A stretch of 64,000 nt of DNA from a virus: the IMG/VR virus record IMGVR_UViG_3300027969_000092, positions 2,262 to 66,261 of that record; one strand, given 5' to 3'. The position numbers and the translations under genes were made by a program. Each line of letters starts with the position of its first letter. The stretch's first letter is position 1. The notes beneath the pieces were generated by a model that was not told the origin of the DNA, did not search any database, and worked only from the letters and a program-made list of their open reading frames with translations. Positions 10,029 to 60,571 of the stretch are shown here, in pieces.

Positions 10029-10067
10029 ATACTAATGCAAAAAAGGGGCTATGTCAAGCCCCTTTTT
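10029..10067 (-). promoter_or_regulatory. sigma70 promoter TTGACA-N17-TAGTAT embedded in a terminator hairpin; also carries the GCATTAGT box
   Basis: Minus strand AAAAAGGGGC-TTGACATA-GCCCCTTTTTT-GCATTAGTAT. Confidence 0.7.
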
Positions 10068-11253: not shown

Positions 11254-11283
11254 ACTAATGCAAAAACACAGAGATTTCCGCCC
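11254..11283 (-). promoter_or_regulatory. Phage late-type promoter GGGCG-N17-GCATTAGT
   Basis: One of 8 exact-spacing copies. Confidence 0.75.
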
Positions 11284-12214: not shown

Positions 12215-12432
12215 TTACCGCACTCCCTGTCTGCTTGACGTTTTGCCAGCTCACGGTCGATGTACCACTTTGCTTTCTTAAGATCTTCAATGGCGTCTTT
12301 TTTTAAGTCGCAGCGCCAAATGTATTTAAGTGCGTTACCTAAATTAAAACCCATGTGCTCAGTAATCTGAATGCACTCGATGCCACTGGGGTGGTCGGTA
12401 TAATGCTTAGGATGGTTGACCGGATCGTTCAT
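12211..12432 (-). CDS. DUF3310 family (T7 gp1.7 nucleotide kinase-like)
   Basis: DPVNHPKHY, IECI, FNLGNALKYIWR, EDLKKAKWY. Confidence 0.9.
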   Translation of the reverse strand: MNDPVNHPKHYTDHPSGIECIQITEHMGFNLGNALKYIWRCDLKKDAIEDLKKAKWYIDRELAKRQADRECGK

Positions 12433-12601
12433 GTCTCATTTTCCTTAATTCGTTTTCCATTACCATGGCTTCTTGTTCTGTTGCGCAGACCCATAGCCCC
12501 ATAAAAGGTTGGTACATACTGGTATCAATGTCCTCTACACCAGTGATTGTTTCTAATGTATAACTACCACCTTTGCGATGCTCAACAACAAAGTAGCTCA
12601 T
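12407..12601 (-). CDS. Hypothetical protein
   Basis: Coupled ORF. Confidence 0.55.
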   Translation of the reverse strand: MSYFVVEHRKGGSYTLETITGVEDIDTSMYQPFMGLWVCATEQEAMVMENELRKMRHERSGQPS

Positions 12602-12903
12602 AGCTTCAGTTCCTTTTTAATAAACTCAATGCCTTTAGTAAAATGATACCGCCAGTACTTCTCACTGACACCAACGTCATAGTACATATGGCCATTGAGA
12701 AACGCTGTTAAAACATAGCGTTGCTTTTGTGGCATTTTGGTATCAATTAATCTACGAATATCAATTATATCATCGTTATCCCAAGGAAGCCAGCCCTCTT
12801 GTAATAAATGAAAGCCATCTGGTGCATCGTCTTGCTCAATGGGATCTGGATCTTCGTCAGATAGTCTCGGTGTCACCGCTTTTATTTTATGTTTTTTTAT
12901 CAT
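12598..12903 (-). CDS. Possible sigma region 3.2/4-like protein
   Basis: Acidic linker followed by MPQKQRYVL..FLNG.MYYDVGVSEK..R.H..KGIEFIKKEL, resembling a shortened sigma4. Confidence 0.45.
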   Translation of the reverse strand: MIKKHKIKAVTPRLSDEDPDPIEQDDAPDGFHLLQEGWLPWDNDDIIDIRRLIDTKMPQKQRYVLTAFLNGHMYYDVGVSEKYWRYHFTKGIEFIKKELKL

Positions 12904-14234
12904 ATTACTAATGAGTCTAACAACGCTTCCTGTAAGTTAATTTTGCCTTCTAATACTTTGACTACGTGTTCATCAATACTCTTAGCTATCGTCAGGTGAT
13001 GTATGATAACCGGTTTTTCTTGCCCTTGGCGGTAGATCCTAGCATTCGCCTGGATGTAGTTCTCTGAGCTCCATGGTAGATCGAACCAGACCGTCTGTGC
13101 TGTGTCTCCAACGTTGCACTGTAAATTAAGCCCGATCCCACCACTTTGCGGGTGGGCAAGGAGCATACGAATCTCGCCACGACGCCACGCCGCAATGTTG
13201 TCATCGTCCAGCACCACCGCCTGTGGGAACTGAAGACGTATTCGTTGTAGCGAATGCTTGAAATGATAGAAGACAAGCGTGGGACTTGAAGATTCTTCCA
13301 TGATCGACTCAAGACATTCCAATTTAGAGCGGTGTACTTCTTGTGCCTCTCCTTCCGCATTATAAACTGCTCCCGATGTGAACTGGAGCAGCTTGTTCGC
13401 CAATGCTGCCGCTGTTGGAGCTGTGATTTTTTCTTTCTTGACCTCAACGACCATATCTTTTCTAAGTTGGTCATATTTACTCCTTACATTCTTATCAATT
13501 TCTATGGGGTGATACAAACTGGTACATTCAGGCAGCTGCAAGTAGTCCTCCGCCCGCAATGAAAAGCAGATATCTTCTATTTTACTCTTAATTGCATCTT
13601 CAGCGCCCGCTTGCATCTTCCATGAGTACACCACCTTGGTATGGCGGTTGTACTGGTCTGGTGTCAGGTACTTATCCCTAAACTTGGTAAGGCTAGTCTC
13701 TAGACGTGCCCCTAAGTCCAATATACCCACCTGTGACCAGAGATCAGCCAGGCCTTGAGGGGTGGGTGTGCCGGTGAGGATGATGCGCCTGGTGAACGTT
13801 TTAAGGTGCTTCTTGAGCGCTTTAAAACGCTTGGTGCTGGAGTCCTTGAAACGGCTCGATTCATCTATTACTAAGTTAGTAAACACTAACTTAGGTGAGA
13901 CGTCACAGAGCCATGCTACGTTCTCAAGGTTAACTAAGTATACGTCTGCATCAGCGTTCAATCCAGCCATACGTTGGGTGGAGCTGCCAAGTATCTTCGA
14001 GACCCTTAGATGCTTCAGATGGGCCCATTTCTGTACTTCTGTGTCCCATACTGTCTCGGCCACTCGTTTCGGTGCAATGATCAGCGTTTTCCCTTGAAAC
14101 TGTTCTGCGATGATGGTCAAGGTGGTAGTCGTTTTCCCTAGACCTGGAGGCAGGAAGAGTCCCAGGTTTGGAATCGTCTTCGCTCGGTCGATGATTTGTG
14201 TTTGATACGGATGTAAGTTGGTTCGCTTGAGCAC
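12900..14234 (-). CDS. SNF2-family helicase
   Basis: LHPYQ, PGLGKT, VIDESS, LTGTP, SGGIGLNLQ, QANARIYRQGQ. Confidence 0.93.
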   Translation of the reverse strand: MLKRTNLHPYQTQIIDRAKTIPNLGLFLPPGLGKTTTTLTIIAEQFQGKTLIIAPKRVAETVWDTEVQKWAHLKHLRVSKILGSSTQRMAGLNADADVYLVNLENVAWLCDVSPKLVFTNLVIDESSRFKDSSTKRFKALKKHLKTFTRRIILTGTPTPQGLADLWSQVGILDLGARLETSLTKFRDKYLTPDQYNRHTKVVYSWKMQAGAEDAIKSKIEDICFSLRAEDYLQLPECTSLYHPIEIDKNVRSKYDQLRKDMVVEVKKEKITAPTAAALANKLLQFTSGAVYNAEGEAQEVHRSKLECLESIMEESSSPTLVFYHFKHSLQRIRLQFPQAVVLDDDNIAAWRRGEIRMLLAHPQSGGIGLNLQCNVGDTAQTVWFDLPWSSENYIQANARIYRQGQEKPVIIHHLTIAKSIDEHVVKVLEGKINLQEALLDSLVI

Positions 14235-14592
14235 GTTCTATTCCTTTAACCATGGCTTTTAATATTGGTAGCATTATTTTTGTTCCGTACTCTGACAGGG
14301 CACAGTTTACAGCCCACAGTATAACTCTTGTATTTGATTCTGTATACGGCAGGTTTTTGTCAATACGATCTAATGACGGTGCATCCCAACGCCTAGTGGC
14401 ATTTCCATCTGTTGGTTCAAAACAAAAGTGAAGTCCTGTTATCTCACATGTGCCTCTGGTAAGGTGTGCTTCTATCCACGCTTGAGTAATTGCCAGTTCA
14501 ATACCTTTGTCTTTACATCTGCGCCTAGCATTACCTATTAACGTGTTTGCTCGCCCAACAACAGTTCTTTTGTAGTCGTTACTGTATGCCAT
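13951..14592 (-). CDS. HNH-like (beta-beta-alpha-Me) endonuclease with overlapping C-terminal extension
   Basis: CEITG...PSLDRID...YTESNTRVILWAVNCA. Confidence 0.7.
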   Translation of the reverse strand: MAYSNDYKRTVVGRANTLIGNARRRCKDKGIELAITQAWIEAHLTRGTCEITGLHFCFEPTDGNATRRWDAPSLDRIDKNLPYTESNTRVILWAVNCALSEYGTKIMLPILKAMVKGIERAQANQLTSVSNTNHRPSEDDSKPGTLPASRSRENDYHLDHHRRTVSRENADHCTETSGRDSMGHRSTEMGPSEASKGLEDTWQLHPTYGWIER

Positions 14593-14854
14593 TTATGAAG
14601 TCCTCAACGTCTTCTTTGCTTCGTAAAATATGGACAGGAAACCCCTGTTCACCCAGCTCGTCGAACACGACTACTTGTCTTGGACTTAGTATTCCTGTTT
14701 CCGTTTTTAACTCGACTAGAAAAACTTTCTGATTCAGAAACACTATTCGATCCGGCACCCCCGTCACGCTGCTCAGCCATTTGAATGAGAGCCCCGATGA
14801 CTGCTTGATTCGTTTTGTCAGGTAACTTTCTATTTCTTTCTCTAGTACGCTCAC
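14579..14854 (-). CDS. VRR-NUC nuclease (probable GTG start)
   Basis: LEKEIE, GVPDRIV, VELKT..G.LSPRQ. Confidence 0.88.
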   Translation of the reverse strand: MSVLEKEIESYLTKRIKQSSGLSFKWLSSVTGVPDRIVFLNQKVFLVELKTETGILSPRQVVVFDELGEQGFPVHILRSKEDVEDFINGIQ

Positions 14855-15254
14855 GTTTGTCTTCCTCCGTCGCATAGATTGCGAATACTTGTTTAAATAT
14901 GTGTTCACCTAAATACGAACGACTCTCATCACCAATCTTGGTTTCATCCTCACCAATGAATTCAAAGACGTGGGTGACTGTGTGAGAAACTTCATGGTAG
15001 ATAACCCCCATGCGCTCCAAGGCATCACACTTAGACATCTCATCATAGTTAAACACAATGCCCAACATGGCAGCATGTGTGCCCTCTTGTTGGATTAGAT
15101 GTGACTCTGCCAGGCCAATGTCTAATGACTGATGGCGGGTGGTAATCTTAGAGTCTCTGACTGCTTGCTGGAATGCTGCGTCGTCAAAGCATACCTTGAT
15201 CTTGATACCAAAGTGTCCCGTGTCGGCAATGTAGTATGGCAGTTTCTTTTTCAT
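14649..15254 (-). CDS. HExxH putative metallopeptidase
   Basis: IYHEVSH...E..SY. Confidence 0.55.
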   Translation of the reverse strand: MKKKLPYYIADTGHFGIKIKVCFDDAAFQQAVRDSKITTRHQSLDIGLAESHLIQQEGTHAAMLGIVFNYDEMSKCDALERMGVIYHEVSHTVTHVFEFIGEDETKIGDESRSYLGEHIFKQVFAIYATEEDKRERTRERNRKLPDKTNQAVIGALIQMAEQRDGGAGSNSVSESESFSSRVKNGNRNTKSKTSSRVRRAG

Positions 15255-15421
15255 AGCAAGTCTTTAGATAATATGCCACGTTTATAAAATATCTCTCGGA
15301 TTTTTTGTAGCGCACGTTTTTCAATTGCACTAACTGTCTTGATATCCAAAAACATTACTTCAGCAATTTGAGCATGTGTCATGGCACGATCAAGTATTTC
15401 TTGGCGGTCTTCTTTGTTCAT
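15251..15421 (-). CDS. Stand-alone sigma70 region-4 HTH protein (56 aa; not in ORF track)
   Basis: MNKEDRQEILDRAMTHAQIAEVMFLDIKTVSAIEKRALQKIREIFYKRGILSKDLL aligns by eye to RpoD TLEEVG...RERIRQIEAKALRKLR; ATGA coupling on both sides. Confidence 0.7.
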   Translation of the reverse strand: MNKEDRQEILDRAMTHAQIAEVMFLDIKTVSAIEKRALQKIREIFYKRGILSKDLL

Positions 15422-15531
15422 TTTGTTAGTTCACGCAATAATTTAATAGCTTCTTGAATAAGAGCACAGTCTGGTGCTAACGGATTGCCATATCGTTGGT
15501 CAAGTGCTTCAATTAGTTCTTGGGTTGTCAT
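15418..15531 (-). CDS. Hypothetical 37-aa protein (not in ORF track)
   Basis: MTTQELIEALDQRYGNPLAPDCALIQEAIKLLRELTK; GGAG RBS; ATGA overlaps. Confidence 0.55.
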   Translation of the reverse strand: MTTQELIEALDQRYGNPLAPDCALIQEAIKLLRELTK

Positions 15532-16073
15532 ACTATCTCCTTTTTAATACCATAAAAATACAAATCTGCTGGAAAGTCGCAGGTTGAAAATTTGTGCTCA
15601 GTAAACATAGAATGTAAATCAAACTCACTGGCAAAATCGTATGCAGTCAGATTACTGTAATAGTCGTTTGTGAACGGCGCATCTGCTGGGCTGGTGCGAG
15701 TTGTACCATGCTCTGGTCTGCCAGTGGTAGCGCAACTAAACACAAACAAACCGCCAGGTTTAAGAACGTCGTACATCCTTGCAAATGACTGTCTCCAAAA
15801 CTGATCATGCTCAAAACATTCACAAGAGATAACAGTATCAAATGCGTTGTTCGGTGATTCTAATCCATGGGCTGGGCATACTAGATCCACATCCTTGCCG
15901 GGACCCAAATCAATACCTAGATAGTCACAGTCATCAAAGAAGATACGCACTGAGCCGTTAATGTTTAGTGAACCAACTTCTAATACTTTGGTGTGATTAA
16001 ATGCTTTTGGAAACTTAGTGCGTACACTAGATACAAAATCTAATTGAGTTTGATGAGACATTATTGATACCAC
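15528..16073 (-). CDS. Class I SAM-dependent methyltransferase
   Basis: VLEVGS, YLGID, FDTVISCECFEH, LKPGG. Confidence 0.85.
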   Translation of the reverse strand: MVSIMSHQTQLDFVSSVRTKFPKAFNHTKVLEVGSLNINGSVRIFFDDCDYLGIDLGPGKDVDLVCPAHGLESPNNAFDTVISCECFEHDQFWRQSFARMYDVLKPGGLFVFSCATTGRPEHGTTRTSPADAPFTNDYYSNLTAYDFASEFDLHSMFTEHKFSTCDFPADLYFYGIKKEIV

Positions 16074-16711
16074 CTTCTATATAGTTCGGGTCTGTTTGCT
16101 TTAATCCACTCTTTGGGTTCATTATAGTTCTTTTCGCTGTCTAAGCCAATAGTTGCGCTACCAACGTGGTGAACATAAGCACGGGATGCGTAGTGGTGGC
16201 GTCCTTTGTTAGTCATGTCAAGACATTGGATGTCATCACTGAACCAGTTGATTGGCGGGTAGTCTATCCATGCCTCTTTGCTGATGTATGCAAACAAGGG
16301 GGCTACTGCACCTTGATGCAACAAAGCATTGCCCACAATGTGTTGGTTGGTAGACGGGCGAGCATAGTCTGACTTAGCCGCCACCCATCCCAACTTACCC
16401 ATCTTCTTCAATCCTTGCACATCTTCATTAAGCAAACGATAAGTATCTGGGGTGAGCACTACATCATCGTTCGCCACAATGATTTCATCAAACTCTTGAA
16501 ACGCACGATTGACTACGCAGTTGTATGAGTCGCCATAGTTCGTACCTTTGTTTTCGTGCATGATTGTTATTTGATTGCCAGTAGTGTGAAACTTTAAGTT
16601 TTTAGGTGCAGAGATAAACACCACTACATCGTCCGGCACGTAGTGTTTGATAGATGCCAGCATGACAGGCAAGCATCTTGCATTGATGGTTGCTATAACA
16701 ATCGCTTTCAT
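16061..16711 (-). CDS. Glycosyltransferase family 2-like
   Basis: IVIAT, YGDSYN, IVANDDVV, WFSDD, VHHVGSAT. Confidence 0.75.
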   Translation of the reverse strand: MKAIVIATINARCLPVMLASIKHYVPDDVVVFISAPKNLKFHTTGNQITIMHENKGTNYGDSYNCVVNRAFQEFDEIIVANDDVVLTPDTYRLLNEDVQGLKKMGKLGWVAAKSDYARPSTNQHIVGNALLHQGAVAPLFAYISKEAWIDYPPINWFSDDIQCLDMTNKGRHHYASRAYVHHVGSATIGLDSEKNYNEPKEWIKANRPELYRRWYQ

Positions 16712-16845
16712 TCTGTTTGTGCCTTCATCATCTCAGCTATCAGATGTTGTGTGGTTTCAGGGATTGACGCTACAGGGGCGCCACGGATTAGCAGTCCTAA
16801 TAGGATCATGCCAGTGTAAAACGATTTTTGGTCTTGCTCATTCAT
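16708..16845 (-). CDS. Hypothetical 45-aa protein (not in ORF track)
   Basis: MNEQDQKSFYTGMILLGLLIRG...; TAATG and ATGA coupling. Confidence 0.55.
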   Translation of the reverse strand: MNEQDQKSFYTGMILLGLLIRGAPVASIPETTQHLIAEMMKAQTE

Positions 16846-19154
16846 TAGAATATACTTTCATCAAAGGTTTGGATTGAGTCGACATACTTCTGTGCCTTCT
16901 CGTTTAATTTAACACCACGATAGACATGGGAGCGGTTGCCGTCTGTTCTATCTAATGCTGATTCAATACGGTGTTCTTGTGTAGCTGCCAAGAAACGACG
17001 TTTAAACGCAAGCTCTGTTCCTGGCACAATGCTCTTCTTCAACGCCCAGTGCTTGTAGCAAGCAAACACTTCGTCTTTAGATACCTTGGATTCAGGTTCA
17101 AACACAAGGGCATCTTCTACAAACGAACCGATAGGGTTGCCCAGTTCACTCATCAACTCTAACAACTCAATGCCCGTCTTAGGTTGGATGAAGTGACCAC
17201 CACGTGCTAAGCGACGCTTTAAGCCTTCCATTGCCCAGTTGAAGATACCCGACAGTTCTTGCTCTAACTTGTGTGCTAACTCTGTGTCTTCGTTGTTGTA
17301 GAACGAGCGCGTCATCTTAAGCACTACCATACGACCAGTTAGCGCGTTAGAGTTCTCTGTTAACTGTAAGACCTCGTTTGAATAAACTACTATTCGTGTG
17401 GGTAAGTAACCATTCCACGATTCCTTATTTTTTCTATTAATGGTGATAGTATCACCTCCCACAATGCGCAACAGCTGACTGACCACAGCAGAACGATTAC
17501 GCTCAGGAGCACGGGCATCAGTAAAGGATGCAAGGAGTTTACCCAGCCAAGGTTGTAGTCCAAAAGTATCACAGAGTTCCTCCAGTTGTGGTGCTACAGT
17601 GTTGTGTTGTCCTAACAGGGCAACAAGGATTTTGTTAATTGTACCTTTACCTGAGCGACGTGGGCCAATAATGTTAAAAAACTTCTGCTGGCTGGTATCT
17701 CCTGAGAGGATGTAACCAAACATCTCTTGCAGTGCGTCAATAGACTCTTGATCTTCGTCCCAAACGGATTTAAGAAATGCGAGCCATAGTGGGCAGGTGG
17801 CGCTTTGGTTGTAAGAGAAAGGGAGAGAGTTTTGTGTAAAGAAACCCAATGAGTGCGGTATGAGCAATGTGTCTTCAAGGTGGAAGATACCATTCTGAAG
17901 AGACACCAACTTAGAGGCATCGGGTTTGTCCTGAGCATAAGACTCTAACCAAATCGGTGGCTTTGTATTAGCGTGATTGGGTAAGTGGGTAATTGACTTG
18001 ATGGCATCTAATGCTGCGGATACAGTTGCAGGGGACGGATTAAACGCTTCTAATGCGCCCTTCTTACCAGTTTTCTTACATCTGTCTAGGAGGGCATAGA
18101 GTCTCGAACGGATAGTAGCCTCTTCAATTACATCATAGTTTGTGGTGTTGTAGAGGTAGAAGTCCTGAGCATAGTGTACAAGGCGGTAGCCTTCCTCAGA
18201 GGAGTAGAGGTTGTCTAGGAATGTACGGGCATGGTTCATTGCTCCTTGGTCAAGGATAATCTCGCCACGTTGGAGGGCTTCAGTACGTTCTTGTTGGTTG
18301 ACCTTAAAGATCAATGAGCGCAATGTGGCACCAGAACCCTTAAACGTCGGCCACTTGGAATCACATTGACCAGAGGCATAGTTCTCTACTGAACCATCTC
18401 CATAGCTCCAACGCTCCCATAGTTCTAGGGCTTCGTAATCCCCGCCAAACTGGTGGTGTAGAGCAAACCCTACATTAAGCCAATCCGTATACCCACAGTC
18501 GGGTGATATGTGTGTCAGGATCTCTGTCTCTACCCTATGAATATCATAGTCCGCTACGGGTGGTGCATAATCCTCGAATGCGTCTCCTGTGTTACGAATG
18601 GCTCTAGCCGGAATAATGGATGTGAGGTCTTGTGGTTCCTGTGGCACTGTGCCGGTGAGGTGATGTCCTGTGATGGTGAAGTATCTGCCACGTGGATAGA
18701 TTTCTAAGCCTTTGGTATGGTCAACGTGGGCATTTGGCAGTACAGAACGGGTAAATATCTTTACACCAGTACCAGATGGGCTGATTTCCATGTAACCATC
18801 AATACTATCTGCTAATTGTTGCAGTGCAGCATTTGTAAAGCCTTTGTTGGTGTCGTAGCAATCATCTAAATCTACGCCAATGAGGTTGTCTTCATCGGAA
18901 AAGACGAATCCAACGCCATCAAAGCGGTTTGGGTTGTCCTCATAGGCAGATTGGACAGATAGAAAGTCCGCCCATGTTGCTGGGTTGGTTGAGGAGGCAG
19001 ACTGTCCATTGGATTGGGCTGGCAGTTTTGACCACCTTTTGGTGTCTCCACTGCCAACTTCCACAAATCGCCATAGAACCCACCTTGGAATACGCTTCAG
19101 TTCCATGGGGATGTTTTCAAATATAACTGGTAGGGTGGTAGGTTTTGTATTCAT
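16845..19154 (-). CDS. Primase-polymerase / PriCT-2 / D5-type SF3 helicase
   Basis: RWVLW..K.P..ASSTNPATW, GVDLDDC, EISPSGTG, YTDWLNVGFALH, Walker A GPRRSGKGT. Confidence 0.92.
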   Translation of the reverse strand: MNTKPTTLPVIFENIPMELKRIPRWVLWRFVEVGSGDTKRWSKLPAQSNGQSASSTNPATWADFLSVQSAYEDNPNRFDGVGFVFSDEDNLIGVDLDDCYDTNKGFTNAALQQLADSIDGYMEISPSGTGVKIFTRSVLPNAHVDHTKGLEIYPRGRYFTITGHHLTGTVPQEPQDLTSIIPARAIRNTGDAFEDYAPPVADYDIHRVETEILTHISPDCGYTDWLNVGFALHHQFGGDYEALELWERWSYGDGSVENYASGQCDSKWPTFKGSGATLRSLIFKVNQQERTEALQRGEIILDQGAMNHARTFLDNLYSSEEGYRLVHYAQDFYLYNTTNYDVIEEATIRSRLYALLDRCKKTGKKGALEAFNPSPATVSAALDAIKSITHLPNHANTKPPIWLESYAQDKPDASKLVSLQNGIFHLEDTLLIPHSLGFFTQNSLPFSYNQSATCPLWLAFLKSVWDEDQESIDALQEMFGYILSGDTSQQKFFNIIGPRRSGKGTINKILVALLGQHNTVAPQLEELCDTFGLQPWLGKLLASFTDARAPERNRSAVVSQLLRIVGGDTITINRKNKESWNGYLPTRIVVYSNEVLQLTENSNALTGRMVVLKMTRSFYNNEDTELAHKLEQELSGIFNWAMEGLKRRLARGGHFIQPKTGIELLELMSELGNPIGSFVEDALVFEPESKVSKDEVFACYKHWALKKSIVPGTELAFKRRFLAATQEHRIESALDRTDGNRSHVYRGVKLNEKAQKYVDSIQTFDESIF

Positions 19155-19161
19155 ACCTGTG

Positions 19162-19190
19162 ATTTTATAGTAAGTTTAAACACTTTGCAA
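19162..19190 (-). promoter_or_regulatory. sigma70 promoter for a probably leaderless primase mRNA
   Basis: TTGCAA-N17-TAAAAT, 7 nt before the ATG; GTTTAAAC in the spacer. Confidence 0.6.
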
Positions 19191-19344
19191 ACCTATTTAT
19201 GTAGGTATTTCACATTATGAAATGCCAATTTGCCAAACCTCCCCGCAAACCCTTATAGTAGAGCCATTGTCACGGTAGCTTTCCTATAACCACGGGGGTT
19301 AGCGGGTGATTTGTCACTTTTTGTCGAAAAATTGTCAGGGTACA

Positions 19345-19363
19345 AATGAGAATGATTCCTATT
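19345..19363. promoter_or_regulatory. Fur-box-like palindrome
   Basis: AATGAGAATGATTCCTATT, close to AATGAGAATnATTCTCATT. Confidence 0.55.
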
Positions 19364-19397
19364 TGACTACCAATAATCAACGACTTACGAACAAATT

Positions 19398-19514
19398 GTC
19401 ATAGTAGTCATAGTAGTCACCCTTACTTTTATTATTTTTATTATTTTTAAAAAACATAAAGTAAAGAGAGGGGGTAAAAGTGATTTAGACCCTGACTACT
19501 GTTACTACTATGAC
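19398..19514. repeat. Origin-like element copy 1 (inverted 9-bp iterons around an AT-rich core; IHF consensus at 19375-19387)
   Basis: GTCATAGTA x2 + GTCACC ... AT tract ... CCCTGAC-TACTGTTAC-TACTATGAC. Confidence 0.7.
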
Positions 19515-19715
19515 AATCCATAACTTTTAGTTATATAGAAATTGAAATGCTACTACTTTTGGTTATAAAAAGGGGACGACTTTAATAGCATGTCATATAG
19601 CCACCCTGGGAGATACACACAGTTTGTCCCCCGTTGGGTTGATTAATGATGATAGTTTCCGCAGCCAAAACGGGAGAGCTTATAAGGCATACTGTCAATA
19701 TAACTAAAAGTTTGG

Positions 19716-19910
19716 TCATTTGTTCACCTCATAACCTTTCTGTTCAATCATTCTGTATGCCCATTTTCTGAACTCAATGCGGTTTTCGCTTGTTTGGGCT
19801 TCTTTGTCATCCCATACGGCATCAAGGATATGCTCGCCTGTGGCATCGTTAAACTCAATCTTTAGCATATTGCCGTCTTTATCATAGATATCTACTGGTA
19901 TTGCTCTCAT
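19716..19910 (-). CDS. Hypothetical early protein
   Basis: ORF with ATGA coupling (start MRAIP). Confidence 0.55.
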   Translation of the reverse strand: MRAIPVDIYDKDGNMLKIEFNDATGEHILDAVWDDKEAQTSENRIEFRKWAYRMIEQKGYEVNK

Positions 19911-20179
19911 TTTGCACCCCATGTGTCTTGGTTGTTGTAATCGCCTCTAATCATGCTCATTCTTTCGTCTTTCCTACTTTTTGGCTCAACTGCAAGCCAT
20001 TGTTTAAACATCGCCTGATAGTGTAGGTAGTCATGGTTCATCTCAAACAATGGATGATTCATGCCCGCCACATCAACTGTGCTTAATACATCGCTAGACG
20101 GAATCCATTTATTTGAATGTCGGATTTTGTCTCGGGCTTGAATATATAGGGCATATGCTCGTTTTTGTTCGTCAGTCAT
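19907..20179 (-). CDS. Hypothetical early protein
   Basis: ORF with GAGGAG RBS. Confidence 0.6.
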   Translation of the reverse strand: MTDEQKRAYALYIQARDKIRHSNKWIPSSDVLSTVDVAGMNHPLFEMNHDYLHYQAMFKQWLAVEPKSRKDERMSMIRGDYNNQDTWGAK

Positions 20180-20744
20180 CGTGTTTCTCCTCTAGGTGAT
20201 CATCATTCTTTAACTCATTCAAATATGCGGGTTCTCTTGATATGTGGGCTTGCAATTCACTTATACGGACTTCTGACATCTTTGTATGGCTTGATAGCTC
20301 TGTCTTGGTAGGTTGCCTACATAACGATTGGGATAGGCTTCTCTCTATGTATTTGAGCTTCTTGATATCAAGCATGATATTGACAGGCAAACGGATAAGG
20401 TTCTCGGTGTTGTTTAACTCCCGCTTAACACCCCTCAATATGAATGGCTTGGCATAGGTGGCAAAACTGGCATTGTTAGTGGGTTTCCATGCCCTTGCTG
20501 ACATGAATAGGGCTTCATTACCCATGCTAAGGATGTCCTCAACGGGTGTCTTACCATGTTGCCATGCGGATAGGCTACGGACTACATAGACTACGAATCT
20601 AAGGTTGTGTTTGATTAGCTTTTCTAAGGCTTGTTGGTTGCCCTGTTGAATCTGACTAGCTAATTGGTGCTCCTCTGTAACTGAAAGAGGTTCTATCCCA
20701 TACAGGGATTGGAGGTAATCACTTAAAATATCATTTTGGGTCAT
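20172..20744 (-). CDS. Sigma70-like factor, regions 1.2-2-3 only (no region 4)
   Basis: LSDYLQSL...PLSVTEEHQLA, LIKHNLRFVV, EDILSMGNEAL, SFATYA, LIRLP, RQPTKTELS; ends at region 3.2. Confidence 0.88.
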   Translation of the reverse strand: MTQNDILSDYLQSLYGIEPLSVTEEHQLASQIQQGNQQALEKLIKHNLRFVVYVVRSLSAWQHGKTPVEDILSMGNEALFMSARAWKPTNNASFATYAKPFILRGVKRELNNTENLIRLPVNIMLDIKKLKYIERSLSQSLCRQPTKTELSSHTKMSEVRISELQAHISREPAYLNELKNDDHLEEKHDD

Positions 20745-20925
20745 CAGGGTTTCACATTATGAAATACGAAACCCTGATTATATTACTTTTTGTTATATAG
20801 GTGGTAATGATGCCAACAATACCATATAAGCAATGGTAGCCATGTATAGGTTAGTGCTTCCCACGCTAGACTTCCAAGCCACATGATAAAAACTGCGGGT
20901 AAATATAATATGTTTGCTACGAAAT

Positions 20926-21108: not shown

Positions 21109-21247
21109 CTTCTTCGTTGTCGTATAGACTATACTCCTCCTCGATCATTTCAATAACTTTCAATCGCCACATTAGCGTAGTCTTATCCTCATACTCATCT
21201 TCCAACTCAGAGTTAAGGATTGCATCTTCAATTTGATCTTGGGTCAT
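21101..21247 (-). CDS. Small acidic protein (start MTQDQ)
   Basis: GAGGAG RBS; ATGA overlap; highly acidic. Confidence 0.55.
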   Translation of the reverse strand: MTQDQIEDAILNSELEDEYEDKTTLMWRLKVIEMIEEEYSLYDNEEDV

Positions 21248-28769: not shown

Positions 28770-28799
28770 GGGCGCTAACCCCCTGGTTTTTGCATTAGT
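28770..28799 (+). promoter_or_regulatory. Late promoter GGGCG-N17-GCATTAGT (leaderless into 28806)
   Basis: Conserved motif; ATG 6 nt downstream. Confidence 0.75.
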
Positions 28800-30069: not shown

Positions 30070-31505
30070 CATCAAAACAAGAGCTTATACTTAAAAAGTT
30101 TGCAGAAGCACATAAACACTGGCCTAAGCAACAGCTTGATGCTGCACTGTGGCAAGTCAAATGGCAGGTTCAAGCCCTGCCGCACCAAAGAGAACCAGAG
30201 GATGGAGAGTATGATACGTTTCTTATGTTGGCCGGACGGGGATCTGGCAAGACGCACACTGCCAGCCATTGGATTGGCATTCGTGCTTGGAAGTATGACA
30301 ACACCCGTTGGCTCGTCACTGCCCCCACTTCCAACGACATACGAGCAACTTGTTTTGAGGGAGATAGCGGACTCCTTAATATCATCCCCGCCAGCCTCAT
30401 TCGGGATTACAACAAATCCCTTTTTGAGATTACCCTCACCAACGGCTCCATCATCCAAGGAATCCCCGCGTCAGAGCCGGAGCGGTACCGTGGTAAGCAG
30501 TACCATGGAGCCTGGTTTGACGAGCTGTGTGCTTTCGACTACATCGATGATGCGTACGATGGTGTTCAGTTCACCTTGCGTCTTAAAGACTCTCGAATCC
30601 CACGAGTCCAGCAGATCATCACCACCACCCCCAAACCTAAAGAGCTCATCGTTGATCTCAACGAAGGTAAGGTCGGTGGAGACGTCTATGTAGCCAATGC
30701 CAGTTCCTATGACAATAGATCCAATCTATCTGAAACGTTCTTCAAACAGCTAGAGACGTACGATGGTACAGACCTAGGTCGTCAGGAGATCTATGGTGAG
30801 ATCCTGGATCCAGAAGCTGCGGGTATTATCAAACGTAAGATGTTCCGCATGTGGCCAGCCAATCGTGCCACCCCAGACCTTGAGTATGTGATTGCCTCGT
30901 ATGATCCGGCTACCTCAGAAAAGACAACCAACGACCCAACGGCATGTACGGTGTGGGGTGTGTTCGAGCAACTGGACTCCGGTACAGCAGTTATCCTGTT
31001 AGATGCTTGGGATGCGCATATGTCCTACCCCGAACTGCGTCGTAAGGTGATTGAAGACTTTAAAGAAGTAGTGTACGGTGCTGACAATGACTTCGGTAAG
31101 GGCCGCAAAGCTGACCTTATACTGATGGAGGACAAGTCTGCAGGTATCTCCCTTATCCAAGAGCTACAGGGCGCAGGGGTGCCTGTACGTGGCTACAATC
31201 CGGGTCGTGCAGATAAGGTGCAGCGTGTTAACATTGTGGCGCCATTGGTTGCTAAGGGCAAGGTGTACATACCAGAAGACATGAAACTTAAGGGTGACTT
31301 TGCCGAATGGGCCAAACGATTCCTCAGACAGGTGTGTTCGTTCCCAGAAGCCGGGGGACATGATGACTATGTGGATTCCCTGTCCCAGGCCTTGCGTGTC
31401 TTAAGAGACTCTGGTTGGGTAAGACTGGATCCTCTGCCAGCTAGGGATTATGACTACGCTGACGATGAGTACAAAAAGAAATTCTTTAACCCGTATGCCC
31501 AGTAG
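30063..31505 (+). CDS. terL: Terminase large subunit
   Basis: AGRGSGKT, WFDE, TTTP, GRQEIYGE, SYDPA, HDDYVDSLSQA. Confidence 0.95.
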   Translation: MLTSKQELILKKFAEAHKHWPKQQLDAALWQVKWQVQALPHQREPEDGEYDTFLMLAGRGSGKTHTASHWIGIRAWKYDNTRWLVTAPTSNDIRATCFEGDSGLLNIIPASLIRDYNKSLFEITLTNGSIIQGIPASEPERYRGKQYHGAWFDELCAFDYIDDAYDGVQFTLRLKDSRIPRVQQIITTTPKPKELIVDLNEGKVGGDVYVANASSYDNRSNLSETFFKQLETYDGTDLGRQEIYGEILDPEAAGIIKRKMFRMWPANRATPDLEYVIASYDPATSEKTTNDPTACTVWGVFEQLDSGTAVILLDAWDAHMSYPELRRKVIEDFKEVVYGADNDFGKGRKADLILMEDKSAGISLIQELQGAGVPVRGYNPGRADKVQRVNIVAPLVAKGKVYIPEDMKLKGDFAEWAKRFLRQVCSFPEAGGHDDYVDSLSQALRVLRDSGWVRLDPLPARDYDYADDEYKKKFFNPYAQ

Positions 31506-31534
31506 GGCGGAAACCCCATACTTTTTGCATTAGT
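31505..31534 (+). promoter_or_regulatory. Late promoter GGGCG-N17-GCATTAGT
   Basis: Conserved motif upstream of portal. Confidence 0.75.
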
Positions 31535-34631: not shown

Positions 34632-34661
34632 GGGCGGAAACCTCCGCCCTTTTGCATTAGT
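34632..34661 (+). promoter_or_regulatory. Late promoter fused with terminator hairpin (leaderless into 34668)
   Basis: GGGCGG-AAACCT-CCGCCC-TTTT-GCATTAGT-N6-ATG. Confidence 0.75.
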
Positions 34662-38581: not shown

Positions 38582-38611
38582 GGGCGGATTAACCGCCTTT
38601 TTTGCATTAGT
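38582..38611 (+). promoter_or_regulatory. Late promoter GGGCG-N17-GCATTAGT
   Basis: Conserved motif with GGCGG/CCGCC hairpin. Confidence 0.75.
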
Positions 38612-49134: not shown

Positions 49135-49355
49135 ACAAGTATCACGTTAGGTTTAACACCAAGAACGAAGGTTCAAAGTTAGTCTGGCGTATTTTTGAAA
49201 ATGGTGTGGAACATCTTGCGTCAGATGTCCGCATCATTGGCGAAACGTTTACTGAATGCACTGAAGAACACGGGCAGACTAAATGGAACATTGCCTGTAT
49301 GGGCCGGATGGTATGGGACAAAGACGCCGTTGTGATAGTAACTAATAAAGATTAG
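49131..49355 (+). CDS. Hypothetical protein
   Basis: Coupled ORF; WRIFENG...WNIAC.G. Confidence 0.6.
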   Translation: MNKYHVRFNTKNEGSKLVWRIFENGVEHLASDVRIIGETFTECTEEHGQTKWNIACMGRMVWDKDAVVIVTNKD

Positions 49356-49384
49356 GGCGTAAAACCCCAGTTTTTTGCATTAGT
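49355..49384 (+). promoter_or_regulatory. Late promoter GGGCG-N17-GCATTAGT
   Basis: Conserved motif. Confidence 0.75.
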
Positions 49385-53576: not shown

Positions 53577-54110
53577 ATGATTAAGACAATCACAGCTTGT
53601 CTGTGCTCGGCTGTCATCGTGTTCGGCTCAGTAACATACGACCCGTTTAGCACATGGCTAATACAGTATGAAAAGAAGTTTGAATGGGTGGCAGAGTCAA
53701 CCATTGAACTCATCACCGGCTTTGAGGGCAAGCGCTACAAAGCCTATATTGATGGCGCCGGAAGGTGGACCATTGGCGTTGGGCACATGATACTGCACAG
53801 AGAGTCCCATATGCTGCACAGGGAGCTTTCTGAAGAGGAGGTAAGGGGTATCCTACACTCCGACCTTAAAAAGTGCTCAGATGCCCTAGAATCGGCTGTA
53901 AAGGTGCCTGTTACCAGGACCCAAGCTGACGCTATGCACAGCCTATGCCATAACATCGGTCCAGACCGGATGGTTAAGTCGGACGTGGTAAAGCACTTAA
54001 ACGATGGAAACATATACAAAGCCGCAGACGCTTTTATGAACTGGAGTAATCCAAGTCAGTTAAAGCAACGGCGTAAAGCCGAAAGGGCTTTGTTTTTAGC
54101 TGGAATTTAG
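53577..54110 (+). CDS. GH24 lysozyme with N-terminal hydrophobic (SAR-like) segment
   Basis: FEG....AYID..G.WTIGVGH (E-8-D-5-T triad), RRKAERALF. Confidence 0.88.
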   Translation: MIKTITACLCSAVIVFGSVTYDPFSTWLIQYEKKFEWVAESTIELITGFEGKRYKAYIDGAGRWTIGVGHMILHRESHMLHRELSEEEVRGILHSDLKKCSDALESAVKVPVTRTQADAMHSLCHNIGPDRMVKSDVVKHLNDGNIYKAADAFMNWSNPSQLKQRRKAERALFLAGI

Positions 54111-54139
54111 GGCGCAAATGTGCCCTTTTTTGCATTAGT
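54110..54139 (+). promoter_or_regulatory. Late promoter fused with terminator hairpin
   Basis: GGGCGC-AAAT-GTGCCC-TTTTTT-GCATTAGT. Confidence 0.75.
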
Positions 54140-60541: not shown

Positions 60542-60571
60542 GGGCGTTTTTACGCCCTTTTTTGCATTAGT
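60542..60571 (+). promoter_or_regulatory. Late promoter fused with terminator hairpin
   Basis: AGGGCGT-TTTT-ACGCCCT-TTTTT-GCATTAGT. Confidence 0.75.

What the first reader, a model, noticed from the sequence alone, without database searches (positions are those of the whole stretch)
12598..20744. Split sigma factor: sigma1.2-3 gene lacking region 4 plus separate sigma4-like mini-genes
Seen: 20172-20744 encodes regions 1.2, 2 and 3 of an RpoD/RpoS-like sigma and stops at the 3.2 linker. An unannotated, translationally coupled 56-aa ORF (15251-15421) looks like a pure region-4 HTH (MTHAQIAEVMFLDIKTVSAIEKRALQKIR), and 12598-12903 looks like an acidic 3.2 linker plus a shortened region 4. Known: region 4 reads the -35 element; T4 gp55 lacks region 4 and uses gp33 on the beta flap. 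Inference: this phage may assemble a two-piece sigma in trans, with the sigma4 modules (encoded in the replication operons) acting as a timing or specificity switch. The genome's promoter motif has a fixed upstream box at N17, which the truncated sigma alone should not be able to read.
Basis: partly seen in the sequence, partly recalled or inferred. Interest (0 to 1): 0.85.

Follow-up and report, generated by a model that had tools for sequence, protein, structure and literature searches.

The report
Phage sigma factor in two genes
An uncultured phage lineage encodes a sigma factor that lacks its promoter -35-reading domain, and it always also carries a separate small gene that looks like that missing domain, so promoter recognition is probably shared between two proteins.

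Summary
ORF 20172-20744 (-) is a sigma-70-family protein covering regions 1.2, 2 and 3 that ends inside region 3.2. All 38 viral homologs end the same way, and none of the 120 best database relatives (188-221 aa) carries region 4, so this is not an assembly error.

The conserved partner candidate is the 101-aa ORF (12598-12903), not the 56-aa ORF. The 101-aa ORF co-occurs with the truncated sigma in every locus long enough to show both. It folds as a disordered acidic N-terminus plus a four-helix domain whose best structural matches are sigma region 4. A paralog matches the C-terminal linker plus region 4 of SigH models (E 9e-06).

The 56-aa ORF passes Pfam Sigma70_r4 but is a rare accessory gene, absent from all relatives.

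The promoter is GGGCG (-36 to -32), T-run, TGcATTAGT, then TAGGA near +1. The box holds its position in 19 of 24 sites, with or without hairpin potential.

All evidence is computational. A rival stays open: the 101-aa protein could be a free operator-binding regulator. First-reader notes of this scan describe apparently the same system in other genomes. Other phage groups were reported cut inside domain 4.

The parts
20172..20744 (-). Sigma-70-family protein of 190 aa with regions 1.2, 2, 3.0/3.1 and the N-terminal part of 3.2. It ends in a conserved acidic tail and has no region 4.
   Evidence: Truncation is conserved in 38 of 38 viral homologs. None of the 120 best database relatives carries region 4.
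12598..12903 (-). orf101: a 101-aa protein with a conserved acidic N-terminal motif (PRLSDEDPDPIEQDD), a disordered linker and a four-helix sigma4-like HTH domain (residues 43-98). Proposed trans-acting domain 4 of the sigma.
   Evidence: Family alignments. AF2 model. Fold matches to sigma region 4. Relatives hit SigH, SigM and r4_2 models. Co-occurrence with the sigma. ATGA coupling to neighbouring genes.
15251..15421 (-). orf56: a 56-aa Sigma70_r4-type HTH protein. Rare accessory gene in a hypervariable stretch; not part of the conserved module.
19907..20179 (-). orf90: a conserved 90-aa protein of unknown fold whose start overlaps the sigma stop by 8 nt. Possible sigma co-factor or anti-sigma in one large subclade.
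28770..28799 (+). Phage-specific promoter motif, first of the late (+ strand) block. The predicted +1 A is the ATG of ORF 28806-29114.
31505..31534 (+). Phage-specific promoter motif GGGCG-N12-T5-GCATTAGT.
34632..34661 (+). Phage-specific promoter motif. The box also forms a 6-bp stem, so the site looks like a terminator-promoter cassette.
38582..38611 (+). Phage-specific promoter motif.
49355..49384 (+). Phage-specific promoter motif.
54110..54139 (+). Phage-specific promoter motif.
60542..60571 (+). Phage-specific promoter motif.
11254..11283 (-). Phage-specific promoter motif on the - strand, 1.3 kb downstream of orf101 and ahead of the exonuclease, RNR and DNA polymerase genes. No hairpin is possible at this site.
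10031..10060 (-). Variant site: the TTGCATTAGT core is preceded by a GGGGCT...AGCCCC hairpin in place of the GGGCG box.
20743..20778 (-). Stem-loop between a TATAAT-like hexamer and the sigma start codon. It pairs the first two bases of the AUG and contains the palindrome TTTCATAATGTGAAA.
   Evidence: -19.7 kcal/mol, z -6.4.

Best explanation
The phage makes a two-piece sigma factor.

The 190-aa protein supplies regions 1.2-3 and the start of 3.2. These parts bind core RNA polymerase, recognise and melt the -10 element, and probably contact the TG just upstream of it.

The 101-aa protein supplies the rest of the 3.2 linker, as a free acidic N-terminus, plus a sigma4-like helix-turn-helix domain. 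That domain is proposed to dock on the beta-flap and read the GGGCG box at -36 to -32.

Both genes lie in the part of the - strand operon series that carries no phage-type promoter (28.7 kb down to 11.3 kb). They would therefore be made from host-type promoters early in infection. Together they would then switch the host polymerase to the nine GGGCG / TGcATTAGT / +1 A promoters that head the late structural genes and the DNA polymerase-RNR block.

Shown: the domain content of both proteins, their conserved co-occurrence, and the conserved architecture of the promoter.

Inferred: that both sit on one polymerase, that the 101-aa protein binds the flap, and that it reads the box.
For: Sigma piece:
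- It aligns to primary sigmas from region 1.2 to sigma70 residue 514 and then ends.
- All 38 viral homologs (46-81% identity) are 159-211 aa, three of them cut by contig ends, and end in the same acidic tail.
- 456 database clusters score E<=1e-8. The best 120 are 188-221 aa and none has PF04545 or PF08281. No relative of 334-2000 aa scored.

Partner (orf101):
- It is found in all 15 loci that extend beyond the SNF2 gene.
- Among 42 further loci found with divergent orf101 subfamilies, all 13 with at least 7.4 kb upstream hold a 125-201-aa sigma (the 125-aa one is cut by the contig end). Three more (L084-L086) have an orf101 paralog 0.8 kb upstream of the sigma.
- The complete distant genome G003 (sigma 48% identical) keeps both genes.
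- AF2 gives residues 1-40 disordered and residues 43-98 as four helices at pLDDT about 90.
- In the Foldseek-independent search, nearly all of the top 22 chains are sigma region 4. Examples: SigR sigma4 Z 7.5, rmsd 2.1 A, 57 aligned of 65; SigE region 4 on -35 DNA Z 7.2. LuxR/NarL-type domains score Z 4-5.
- Foldseek's top rows are also sigma4, but all at E>1.
- Scanned one by one, 3 of 25 family members hit SigH models (best 9e-06). 11 of the 16 NCBIfam families listed are sigma factors. 5 of 25 hit Pfam Sigma70_r4_2 (best 0.0046).
- P0032 residues 17-100, from the acidic motif to the end of the HTH, align to SigH model positions 123-207 of 218. The window protein matches that paralog's profile at 3.9e-14.
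- The nearest named ESM Atlas clusters are small sigma-like HTH proteins (0.93 and 0.91). These scores are leads only.
- 190 + 101 = 291 aa, about a sigma spanning regions 1.2 to 4.2.

Docking test:
- orf101 residues 40-101 were tested against E. coli beta 831-1057. The verdict was weak support: score 0.56, best of 3 controls 0.02.
- That mark was reached by 58 of 80 solved complexes and 2 of 110 mismatched pairs. At 0.60 or under it was reached by only 7 of those 80 and by both mismatches that passed.
- The runs agree in at least 77% of contacts and the partner's pLDDT is at least 84.
- My own alignment was used, so these counts hold only roughly. Sigma4-flap complexes are solved, so the pass may reflect likeness only. 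The E. coli flap is a stand-in for an unknown host.

Promoter:
- There are 8 perfect copies of GGGCG-N17-GCATTAGT.
- Across the window and two relatives, 19 of 24 TTGCATTAGT sites have GGGCG at exactly offset -20 and at no other offset. Of those 19, 8 can form a stem of at least 5 bp and 9 have 3 bp or less.
- GGGC(N) sits at that offset in 42 of 75 sites in 80 loci.
- With ATTAGT as -12 to -7, the box falls at the canonical -35 position and TG at -15/-14.

Literature:
- A holoenzyme lacking sigma4 initiates poorly (PMC7948647, abstract).
- Two-subunit sigmas have precedent (preprint 10.64898/2026.10.01.756105, passages; PMC2988020, passages).
Against: - No experiment supports the model, and no RNA data were available.
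- The window's orf101 itself matches no curated family.
- Its family profile finds no sigma chain in the PDB. The best hits are GerE at E 0.4 and FixJ C-terminal domain at 0.53.
- hhalign against five full-length sigmas gives probability 0.2%.
- Pairwise alignments to RpoD C-termini are not above shuffles.
- Fold Z values of 7-7.5 are in the range the tool warns can reflect a common helical arrangement.
- No fused full-length sigma was found among the 34 representatives hit by the orf101 profile.
- The two genes are 7.3 kb apart, and their co-occurrence is partly shared ancestry of one phage lineage. Some loci come from the same contigs (L008/L097; L019 was found twice).
- The residues that read TG in sigma70 are not conserved in the 190-aa protein. 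This judgement combines the alignment with recalled residue numbers.
- Extended -10 promoters can work without region 4.2 (PMC2613000, passage), so the sigma might act alone.
- A conserved palindrome, TTTCA-N5-TGAAA, occurs in 32 of 80 loci and needs a binder. orf101 could be that binder.
- In most relatives another conserved gene, orf90, is the one translationally coupled to the sigma.
Confidence: 0.55

Rival explanations
1. The 190-aa sigma works alone at TGn-type (extended -10) promoters. The 101-aa protein is an independent DNA-binding regulator of the sigma4/LuxR HTH superfamily. It might, for example, bind the TTTCATAATGTGAAA operators at the sigma and primase control regions, or act as a class II-like activator at GGGCG without docking as a sigma domain.
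For: - TG lies at -15/-14 of all core sites.
- TGn promoters function without sigma70 region 4.2 (PMC2613000, passage citing Kumar et al. 1993).
- The best PDB sequence hits of the family profile are GerE and FixJ C-terminal domains, at E 0.4-0.5.
- The palindrome is conserved in 32 of 80 loci, and no repressor is evident in the window (first-reader note e1-6171092).
- About half of the GGGCG sites are also hairpins.
Against: - The model has two helices before the HTH and ends directly after the recognition helix, with no C-terminal dimerisation helix. Reading this as sigma4-like rather than LuxR-like rests on recalled knowledge of the two folds.
- Sigma4 domains outrank LuxR/NarL-type domains: Z 7.5-6 against 5 or less.
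- The curated-family hits of relatives are sigma factors, not LuxR/GerE. They extend through the linker upstream of region 4.
- The long conserved acidic N-terminus has no counterpart in GerE-type factors.
- The 3' half of the GGGCG 'palindromes' varies in sequence and spacing, which does not fit a dimer site.
Confidence: 0.22
2. The sigma's functional companion is orf90 (19907-20179), the gene translationally coupled to it. orf90 would act as a gp33-like co-activator or as an anti-sigma, and orf101 would be unrelated to sigma function.
For: - The orf90 start overlaps the sigma stop by 8 nt.
- orf90 follows the sigma directly in 21 of 38 first-set loci and in 15 of 16 sigma-holding second-set loci.
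- Its model is confident, with mean pLDDT 80.
Against: - orf90 is absent from the complete genome G003 (best E 3.2) and from loci L023-L038. Four of those (L026, L027, L030, L038) keep both the sigma and orf101.
- It has no similarity to any family, solved chain or Atlas cluster.
- Its best fold match is Z 5.3 to unrelated helical proteins.
- It shows no DNA-binding motif, yet the promoters carry a sequence-specific upstream box.
Confidence: 0.08
3. The 56-aa region-4 HTH (15251-15421) is the trans-acting sigma4, either alone or as an alternative module to orf101.
For: - It is the only ORF in the genome that passes Pfam Sigma70_r4.
- It is translationally coupled within the replication operon.
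Against: - It has no homolog in any of the 38 related loci, or in the viral contig collection.
- Relatives carry unrelated small genes in its slot.
- Only 3 homolog clusters exist in 5.8 billion proteins.
- It covers only model positions 18-50 of 50 and has no linker.
- There is no second promoter class with another upstream box.
- The truncated sigma is conserved in hundreds of phages that lack orf56.
Confidence: 0.05
4. The 190-aa protein is not a working sigma. It is a decoy that occupies core polymerase to shut off host transcription.
For: - It lacks domain 4, and a holoenzyme without sigma4 initiates poorly (PMC7948647, abstract).
- The tryptophan pair of region 2.3 in SigA (WW) reads PF in the 190-aa protein (alignment).
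Against: - The genome carries a strongly over-represented, non-host promoter motif at gene starts. No phage RNA polymerase was detected to read it: PF00940 gave no match, although the control genomes were also silent. The large ORFs are replication and structural proteins.
- Regions 2 and 3 are well conserved across 456 clusters.
Confidence: 0.05

Closest known systems
Bacteriophage T4 late system: gp55 plus gp33 (with the gp45 clamp)
   Same: A phage sigma without domain 4 works with a separately encoded protein of about 100-112 residues that occupies the beta-flap. The review itself calls gp55 plus gp33 'a split sigma' and gp33 'a sigma4 mimic' (PMC2988020, passages).
   Different: - gp55 is essentially region 2 only; here regions 1.2, 2 and 3 are kept.
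- gp33 has no sequence similarity to sigma, does not read DNA, and T4 late promoters have no -35 element (same passages). Here the small protein has a sigma4-like HTH fold and the promoters have a fixed -35-position box.
- No sliding clamp gene was noticed in the window.
- orf101 has no PHROG match.
Two-subunit sigma factors of Firmicutes: B. subtilis SigO-RsoA, Tn916 Sig7-Sig8, SPO1 gp33/gp34
   Same: Regions 2 and 4 lie on separate polypeptides that both associate with RNA polymerase and together read the -10 and -35 elements (preprint 10.64898/2026.10.01.756105, passages).
   Different: - Those are ECF-like factors with regions 2 and 4 only, encoded by adjacent genes. Here a primary-like sigma with regions 1.2-3 is cut inside region 3.2, and the genes are 7.3 kb apart.
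- No sequence relationship to those proteins was tested here.
Ordinary single-chain sigma-70-family factors (RpoD/SigA, RpoS, SigH)
   Same: The 190-aa protein aligns to them from region 1.2 to region 3.2. An orf101 paralog aligns to the linker plus region 4 of SigH models. The promoter has -35, TG and -10 elements at canonical spacing.
   Different: The polypeptide is interrupted in region 3.2, and both free ends are conserved acidic tails.
Phage sigmas cut inside domain 4
   Same: An RpoD-like phage sigma lacks its -35 reader, and a conserved small HTH gene lies elsewhere in the genome.
   Different: Those are described as cut before region 4.2, within domain 4. Here the whole of domain 4 plus part of the 3.2 linker is the separate protein. 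These are AI notes that I did not check.
GerE / LuxR-type stand-alone HTH regulators
   Same: A small tetrahelical HTH protein. These are the best, though insignificant, PDB sequence hits of the family profile.
   Different: The helix order in the model is sigma4-like, the structural ranking favours sigma4, and there is a long conserved acidic N-terminus.

Membership tests
Sigma-70 family (the 190-aa protein) | Region 2 (core binding, -10 recognition) and region 3 are present. | tested here: met
   Pfam r1_2, r2 and r3 just under cut-off. PHROG 351 at 1.8e-20. RpoD and RpoS models at about 1e-19. SigA chains at 3e-15.
Sigma-70 family (the 190-aa protein) | Region 4 (-35 recognition, flap binding) lies in the same polypeptide. 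| tested here: not met
   The alignment stops at sigma70 residue 514 of 613. 38 of 38 homologs end there. None of the 120 best relatives carries PF04545 or PF08281.
Sigma-70 region 4 domain (the 101-aa protein) | Sequence match to curated region-4 or sigma models. | tested here: inconclusive
   The window protein has no hit. Relatives give sub-threshold hits: r4_2 in 5 of 25 (best 0.0046), SigH models in 3 of 25 (best 9e-06, model positions 123-207 of 218), and SigM. The PDB profile search finds no sigma.
Sigma-70 region 4 domain (the 101-aa protein) | Four-helix domain with a C-terminal HTH, superposable on solved sigma4. | tested here: met
   AF2 residues 43-98 at pLDDT about 90. Nearly all of the top 22 VIA rows are sigma4, best Z 7.5, rmsd 2.1 A, 57 aligned of 65. 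Caveat: Z under 8 can be a common arrangement.
Sigma-70 region 4 domain (the 101-aa protein) | Docks on the beta-flap tip of RNA polymerase. | tested here: inconclusive
   Complex prediction with the E. coli flap as stand-in gave weak support: 0.56 against a best control of 0.02. The mark was reached by 58 of 80 solved and 2 of 110 mismatched pairs, but at 0.60 or under by only 7 of those 80 and by both passing mismatches. Like complexes are solved.
Sigma-70 region 4 domain (the 101-aa protein) | Reads a -35 promoter element. | not testable with these tools
   Indirect only. GGGCG is fixed at -36 to -32 in 19 of 24 sites, independent of hairpin potential. The residues of the predicted recognition helix are invariant in the family.
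Sigma-70 region 4 domain (the 56-aa protein) | Passes the Pfam Sigma70_r4 gathering score. | tested here: met
   27.7 bits against a cut-off of 24.1, but only model positions 18-50 of 50.
T4 gp33-type flap-binding co-activator | Homology to gp33. | tested here: not met
   No PHROG family for orf101 or orf90 at E<=0.01. Fold matches are sigma4, not gp33.
LuxR/GerE-type HTH regulators | Sequence or fold match stronger than to sigma4, plus a dimerisation helix after the recognition helix. | tested here: inconclusive
   GerE at E 0.4 and FixJ C-terminal domain at 0.53. NarL, DesR and EsrB at Z 4.3-5.0, below the sigma4 rows. The model has no helix after the recognition helix.

The most novel reading that the evidence does not exclude
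The sigma is cut near the tip of its region 3.2 'finger' into a constant sigma2-3 core and exchangeable sigma4 modules. Candidate modules are orf101 and its paralogs (two in locus L085, one next to the sigma gene in L084 and L086) and sporadic extras such as orf56. The two conserved acidic free ends would replace the covalent linker inside the RNA exit path. The phage could then order its promoter classes in time (box-less TGcATTAGT versus GGGCG-bearing) by the supply of the sigma4 piece. That would be a combinatorial sigma, not described for any cellular or viral system.
Probability: 0.15. Interest if true: 0.85.

Novelty: new variant of a known kind. Interest (0 to 1): 0.6.

Why it matters
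Sigma factors are normally single chains whose region 3.2 linker threads through the polymerase and ties -10 reading to -35 reading.

A natural, widespread sigma cut inside that linker would show that the covalent link is dispensable. The family numbers 456 protein clusters at E<=1e-8. Both halves still look like ordinary sigma domains, and the promoter keeps a -35-position box. Such a system would give a simple way to ask what the linker and domain 4 each contribute to initiation. It would also fill the gap between T4's very derived gp55/gp33 pair and normal sigmas.

It would also correct annotation. The 190-aa proteins are labelled 'primary sigma factor' by one source, and the source-given names seen for them do not mention the missing region 4. 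The one orf101-family protein looked up by exact sequence (the window's own) has no hit in Pfam, PHROGs or NCBIfam.

The claim is limited by having no cultured member of the lineage and no experimental data.

Tried and rejected
**Searches that gave nothing**
- Near-identical DNA in the phage collection: none.
- Closest cultured relatives are distant. The sigma is at most about 35% identical to any INPHARED phage. The primase is at most 28.5% identical, to 9NA-like phages.
- orf101 and the paralog P0032 have no tblastn hit in that collection at E<=0.01.
- Family profile of orf101 against PDB sequences: no sigma.
- hhalign of the orf101 family against five full-length sigmas: probability 0.2%. 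It did align the recognition helix with the sigma70 4.2 helix.
- hhalign of the orf101 family against the orf56 family: probability 0.1%.
- Shuffle-controlled pairwise alignments of orf101 to sigma C-termini: z from -0.8 to 2.7. The best local match of the N-terminus falls on the sigma70 3.1/3.2 boundary, but 190 of 2000 shuffles score as well. orf56 also fails this test, at z 1.5.
- Rosetta-stone search: the orf101 profile against 1.84 billion representatives gave 34 hits, almost all 33-129 aa, and no full-length sigma. The two long hits are a 739-aa repeat protein and a 229-aa protein matching only the N-terminal part.
- Longer relatives of the sigma (334-2000 aa): none scored.

**Host and polymerase questions**
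- Host: three MAG contigs, binned to two Bacteroidota and one betaproteobacterium. I treat this as unresolved.
- Single-subunit RNA polymerase (PF00940) in the phage's own genome: no match, but the control genomes were silent too, so this is weak.
- Host-type promoter scan of 19100-29000: 24 sites against 29.3 expected, so no signal.

**Promoter tests**
- Second promoter class: one-mismatch variants of the core number 9, against about 8 expected, and most lie on the wrong strand.
- Box versus palindrome test across 80 loci: both elements are conserved, so the test does not discriminate.
- In G003 the strict GGGCG regular expression found nothing relevant. A looser look found GGGC(G/A/C) at the right offset in 4 of 8 sites.

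**Other**
- RNA evidence: no RNA holder was listed.
- orf90 has no Pfam, PDB-sequence or Atlas hit, and its best fold match is Z 5.3.

**Considered and rejected without a test**
- Rejoining of the two sigma pieces by DNA rearrangement, as for B. subtilis sigK. Both ORFs have their own conserved start, stop and tails, and essential replication genes lie between them.
- Reading the GGGCG box as merely a terminator stem. This is rejected as the sole explanation because 9 of the 19 boxes have 3 bp or less of stem potential.

**An error of mine**
- In some searches the orf90 profile included unrelated downstream ORFs. The orf90 results are void and were redone. The sigma and orf101 results stand.

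Supplementary files of papers were not consulted.

Full report
**What the window is.** The window is bases 2262-66261 of a complete 66,261-bp virus record with terminal repeats.
- Genes on the - strand from about 28.7 kb down to 3.7 kb encode replication functions. These include a D5-type primase-helicase, an SNF2 helicase, a VRR-NUC nuclease, an exonuclease, ribonucleotide reductase and DNA polymerase.
- Genes on the + strand from 28.8 kb onward encode terminase, portal and structural proteins.
- No cultured relative exists in the phage collection searched. There is no near-identical DNA. The sigma is at most about 35% identical to any record there, and the primase at most 28.5%.

**The sigma gene.** ORF 20172-20744 (-) encodes 190 aa.
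- It matches Pfam regions 1.2, 2 and 3, each just under the gathering score.
- It matches PHROG 351 'RNA polymerase sigma factor' at 1.8e-20 and RpoD, RpoS and SigB models at about 1e-19.
- Against solved structures it aligns to SigA at 3.3e-15. Its residues 37-182 align to E. coli sigma70 373-514 of 613.
- It therefore ends inside region 3.2, about at the acidic 'finger'. The position of the finger in sigma70 is recalled knowledge; the alignment is the tool result.
- It has no region 4.

**The truncation is not an artefact.**
- 38 of 38 homologs in viral contigs (46-81% identity) are ORFs of 159-211 aa. Three are cut by contig ends. All end in the same acidic tail.
- In the 5.8-billion-protein collection, 456 clusters score E<=1e-8. 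The best 120 are 188-221 aa, and none carries PF04545 or PF08281.
- No relative of 334-2000 aa scored.

**The 56-aa ORF.** ORF 15251-15421 (-) passes Pfam Sigma70_r4 (27.7 bits, cut-off 24.1), over model positions 18-50 of 50 only.
- It is the sole PF04545 match in a six-frame scan of the genome.
- It is coupled by ATGA overlaps to a 37-aa ORF upstream and to the 201-aa ORF downstream.
- It is not part of the conserved system. None of the 38 related loci encodes a homolog, although 21 cover the neighbouring 201-aa gene.
- The stretch between the primase and that gene is hypervariable, and relatives hold unrelated small genes there.
- The viral contig collection holds no relative.
- Only three homolog clusters exist, of 57-59 aa at 80-86% identity.
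- Its neighbours include a methyltransferase, which is typical of an accessory island.

**The 101-aa ORF is conserved with the sigma.** ORF 12598-12903 (-) has no hit of its own in Pfam, PHROGs or NCBIfam. It is nevertheless tightly conserved.
- It occurs in all 15 loci of the first set that extend beyond the SNF2 gene.
- The family keeps an N-terminal motif P(R/K)LSDEExDxxExxD and a C-terminal block ...QRxVLxAFLxG...V(S/T)EKYWRYH... down to about 25-30% identity.
- Scans with two divergent subfamilies brought 42 more loci.
  - All 13 with at least 7.4 kb upstream of the gene contain a region-4-less sigma. Their ORFs are 181-201 aa, plus one of 125 aa cut by the contig end.
  - The 26 loci without a sigma all have at most 5.1 kb upstream, so they say nothing either way.
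  - In L084 and L086 a paralog with a C-terminal extension sits 0.8 kb upstream of the sigma. L085 has both paralogs.
- The complete, distant genome G003 (sigma 48% identical) keeps one copy of each gene.
- Some loci are not independent: L008 and L097 share a contig, and L019 was found twice. All belong to one phage lineage, so co-occurrence alone is not proof of joint function.

**What the 101-aa protein looks like.**
- AlphaFold2 on the 16-sequence alignment gives a disordered N-terminal 40 residues. Residues 43-98 form a confident four-helix domain at pLDDT about 90.
- In the search that does not depend on Foldseek, nearly all of the 22 best chains are sigma region 4. Examples are SigR sigma4 (Z 7.5, rmsd 2.1 A, 57 aligned of 65), SigE region 4 on its -35 DNA (Z 7.2), SigD4, SigF and BldN. 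LuxR/NarL-type domains come lower, at Z 4.3-5.0.
- Foldseek ranks the same sigma4 structures first, but at E>1.
- The tool warns that Z under 8 may reflect a common arrangement. The consistency of the list, more than the score itself, carries the argument.
- At sequence level, members scanned one by one give sub-threshold hits that are almost all to sigma factors. Pfam Sigma70_r4_2 hits 5 of 25 (best 0.0046). SigH models hit 3 of 25 (best 9e-06). 11 of the 16 NCBIfam families listed are sigma factors.
- The best case is P0032. Its residues 17-100, from the acidic motif to the end of the HTH, align to SigH model positions 123-207 of 218. The window protein matches that subfamily's profile at 3.9e-14.
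- The family is therefore collinear with the linker plus region 4 of a sigma-70-family factor.
- Together, 190 + 101 residues make 291, about a sigma spanning regions 1.2 to 4.2.
- ESM Atlas neighbours are small sigma-like HTH proteins at 0.89-0.93, which are leads only.

**Negative results for the 101-aa protein.**
- The family profile finds no sigma among PDB sequences. The best hits are GerE at 0.4 and FixJ C-terminal domain at 0.53, with a sensible alignment that needs a 4-residue deletion in the first HTH helix.
- hhalign against five full-length sigmas gives probability 0.2%.
- Pairwise scores are not above shuffles.
- No fused full-length form was found.

**Docking test.** Residues 40-101 of the family were docked against E. 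coli beta 831-1057, the flap construct named in PMC2988020.
- The verdict was weak support: score 0.56, best of three controls 0.02.
- The mark was reached by 58 of 80 solved complexes and 2 of 110 mismatched pairs. At 0.60 or under it was reached by only 7 of those 80 and by both mismatches that passed.
- The runs agree in at least 77% of contacts, and the partner's pLDDT is at least 84.
- The counts hold only roughly, because my own alignment was used.
- Sigma4-flap complexes are solved, so this shows likeness, not binding. The E. coli flap is a stand-in, because the host is unresolved.

**The promoter.** GGGCG-N17-GCATTAGT occurs 8 times perfectly, against about 1.1 expected.
- If ATTAGT is read as -12 to -7, TG falls at -15/-14, GGGCG at -36 to -32, and a conserved A at +1.
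- In two cases that A begins an ATG in an open frame (28806-29114, and 34668 in the frame of 34629-34856).
- Seven sites head the + strand late genes.
- One site, at 11254 (-), lies 1.3 kb downstream of orf101, ahead of the exonuclease, RNR and DNA polymerase genes. A variant lies at 10031 (-).
- No site lies between 28.7 kb and 11.3 kb on the - strand, where both sigma pieces are encoded.
- Relatives G001 and G002 have 8 and 7 perfect TTGCATTAGT cores.

**Box or terminator stem?**
- Over all 24 cores, GGGCG sits at exactly offset -20 in 19, and at no other offset in the 45 nt upstream.
- Of those 19, 8 can form a perfect stem of at least 5 bp, 2 a stem of 4 bp, and 9 a stem of 3 bp or less.
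- The box is therefore conserved as sequence, not just as the arm of a terminator hairpin. About half the sites look like terminator-promoter cassettes.
- In 80 loci, GGGC(N) holds that offset in 42 of 75 TGCAT(T/A)AGT sites. In distant G003 it does so in 4 of 8.
- No phage RNA polymerase was detected that could own this motif. PF00940 gave no match, although the controls were silent too.

**Mechanism proposed.** Host polymerase transcribes the early - strand genes, including both sigma pieces.
- The 190-aa protein binds core polymerase through region 2 and reads the -10 element, and possibly TG.
- The 101-aa protein docks its sigma4-like domain on the flap and reads GGGCG. Its acidic N-terminus takes the place of the rest of the 3.2 linker.
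- The literature makes such a helper plausible. [quoted passage not shown] TGn promoters can function without region 4.2 (PMC2613000, passage citing Kumar et al. 1993).
- I put this reading at 0.55.

**Rivals.**
- (a) The sigma acts alone at extended -10 promoters, and orf101 is a free HTH regulator. It might bind the palindrome TTTCATAATGTGAAA, which lies both in the sigma leader and upstream of the primase promoter and recurs in 32 of 80 loci. My test of which element stays constant did not discriminate. I put this at 0.22.
- (b) orf90, whose start overlaps the sigma stop, is the true co-factor. It follows the sigma in 21 of 38 and 15 of 16 loci, but it is absent from complete G003 and from the L023-L038 clade. 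It has no recognisable family or fold. I put this at 0.08. It may well be an additional factor.
- (c) orf56 is the partner: 0.05.
- (d) The sigma is a decoy: 0.05.

**Comparison with what is known.** Two-subunit sigmas are known.
- T4 gp55 plus gp33 is called 'a split sigma' in PMC2988020. There, gp33 has no sigma similarity and reads no DNA (passages).
- SPO1 gp33/gp34, B. subtilis SigO-RsoA and Tn916 Sig7-Sig8 are summarised in the preprint 10.64898/2026.10.01.756105 (passages).
- All of those are region-2 plus region-4 systems.
- My searches for a phage sigma lacking region 4 with a sigma4 supplied in trans found no description of this arrangement. For most of those papers I saw search listings and passages only.
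- The present case differs in three ways. It keeps regions 1.2-3. The cut lies inside region 3.2. The promoter has a canonical -35-position box.
- I rate it a new variant of a known kind.

**Earlier notes of this scan.**
- First-reader notes on other genomes describe what appears to be the same lineage: e1-6177964, e1-6139290 and e1-3276449.
- Follow-up reports describe other phage groups whose sigma is cut inside domain 4: e1-5511131, e1-5668489, e1-5791885, e1-5995258 and others.
- I did not check any of these.

Noticed in passing
window 19907-20179 (-): A conserved 90-aa ORF whose ATG overlaps the sigma stop codon by 8 nt. It follows the sigma in 21 of 38 and 15 of 16 sigma-holding loci, but is absent from the complete distant genome G003. 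The AF2 model is confident (pLDDT 80, alpha-beta-beta-alpha-alpha), with no family, PDB or Atlas match. It could be an anti-sigma or a co-factor.
   Followed up: yes
window 20743-20778 (-): A stem-loop (-19.7 kcal/mol, z -6.4) lies between a TATAAT hexamer and the sigma start codon. It pairs the A and U of the AUG, and no Shine-Dalgarno sequence is visible. Relatives L001, L011, L016 and L017 keep a hairpin at this place with different stem sequences. This suggests control of sigma translation or of mRNA stability.
   Followed up: partly
window 20750-20764 and 19208-19222 (-): The same 15-bp palindrome, TTTCATAATGTGAAA, lies in the sigma leader and just upstream of a host-type primase promoter (TTGCAA-N17-TAAAAT). 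TTTCA-N5-TGAAA recurs in 32 of 80 related loci. In relative G002 it occupies the -35 position of a box-less TTGCATTAGT core ahead of the primase gene (locus L052). Its binder is unknown.
   Followed up: partly
window 14579-15254 (-): The 201-aa ORF (14649-15254; HEVSH motif, PHROG 1365) and the VRR-NUC ORF (14579-14908) overlap out of frame by 260 nt. The overlap recurs in a distant relative: in L037, the homolog at 11705-12313 overlaps the VRR-NUC ORF from 12099. This looks like a conserved long gene overlap, or a mis-set start.
   Followed up: partly
loci L084, L085, L086: A paralog of the 101-aa protein with a C-terminal extension (...RLKLDFNRRNY) lies 0.8 kb upstream of the sigma gene. L085 carries this paralog and the canonical copy together. 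The window has only the canonical copy.
   Followed up: partly
window 13951-14592 (-): An HNH endonuclease ORF (PHROG 3322, 3.4e-21) lies between the VRR-NUC and SNF2 genes. It overlaps the longest-ORF start of the SNF2 gene by about 280 nt. It is probably a mobile insertion.
   Followed up: no
window 60599-64000 (+) and 2-1411 (+): An ORF of more than 1,133 aa runs off the window's 3' end, and another open frame enters at the 5' end. The first has no PHROG hit at E<=1e-5; the 5'-open frame was not scanned. They may be one very large virion protein spanning the record's ends.
   Followed up: no
relative G001 (locus L047, G001:55315): In this relative a full GGGCG/TTGCATTAGT site lies between the 201-aa gene and the SNF2 gene, upstream of the orf101 homolog. 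There the sigma4-like gene may also be under the phage's own promoter, giving positive feedback. The window has no such site.
   Followed up: no
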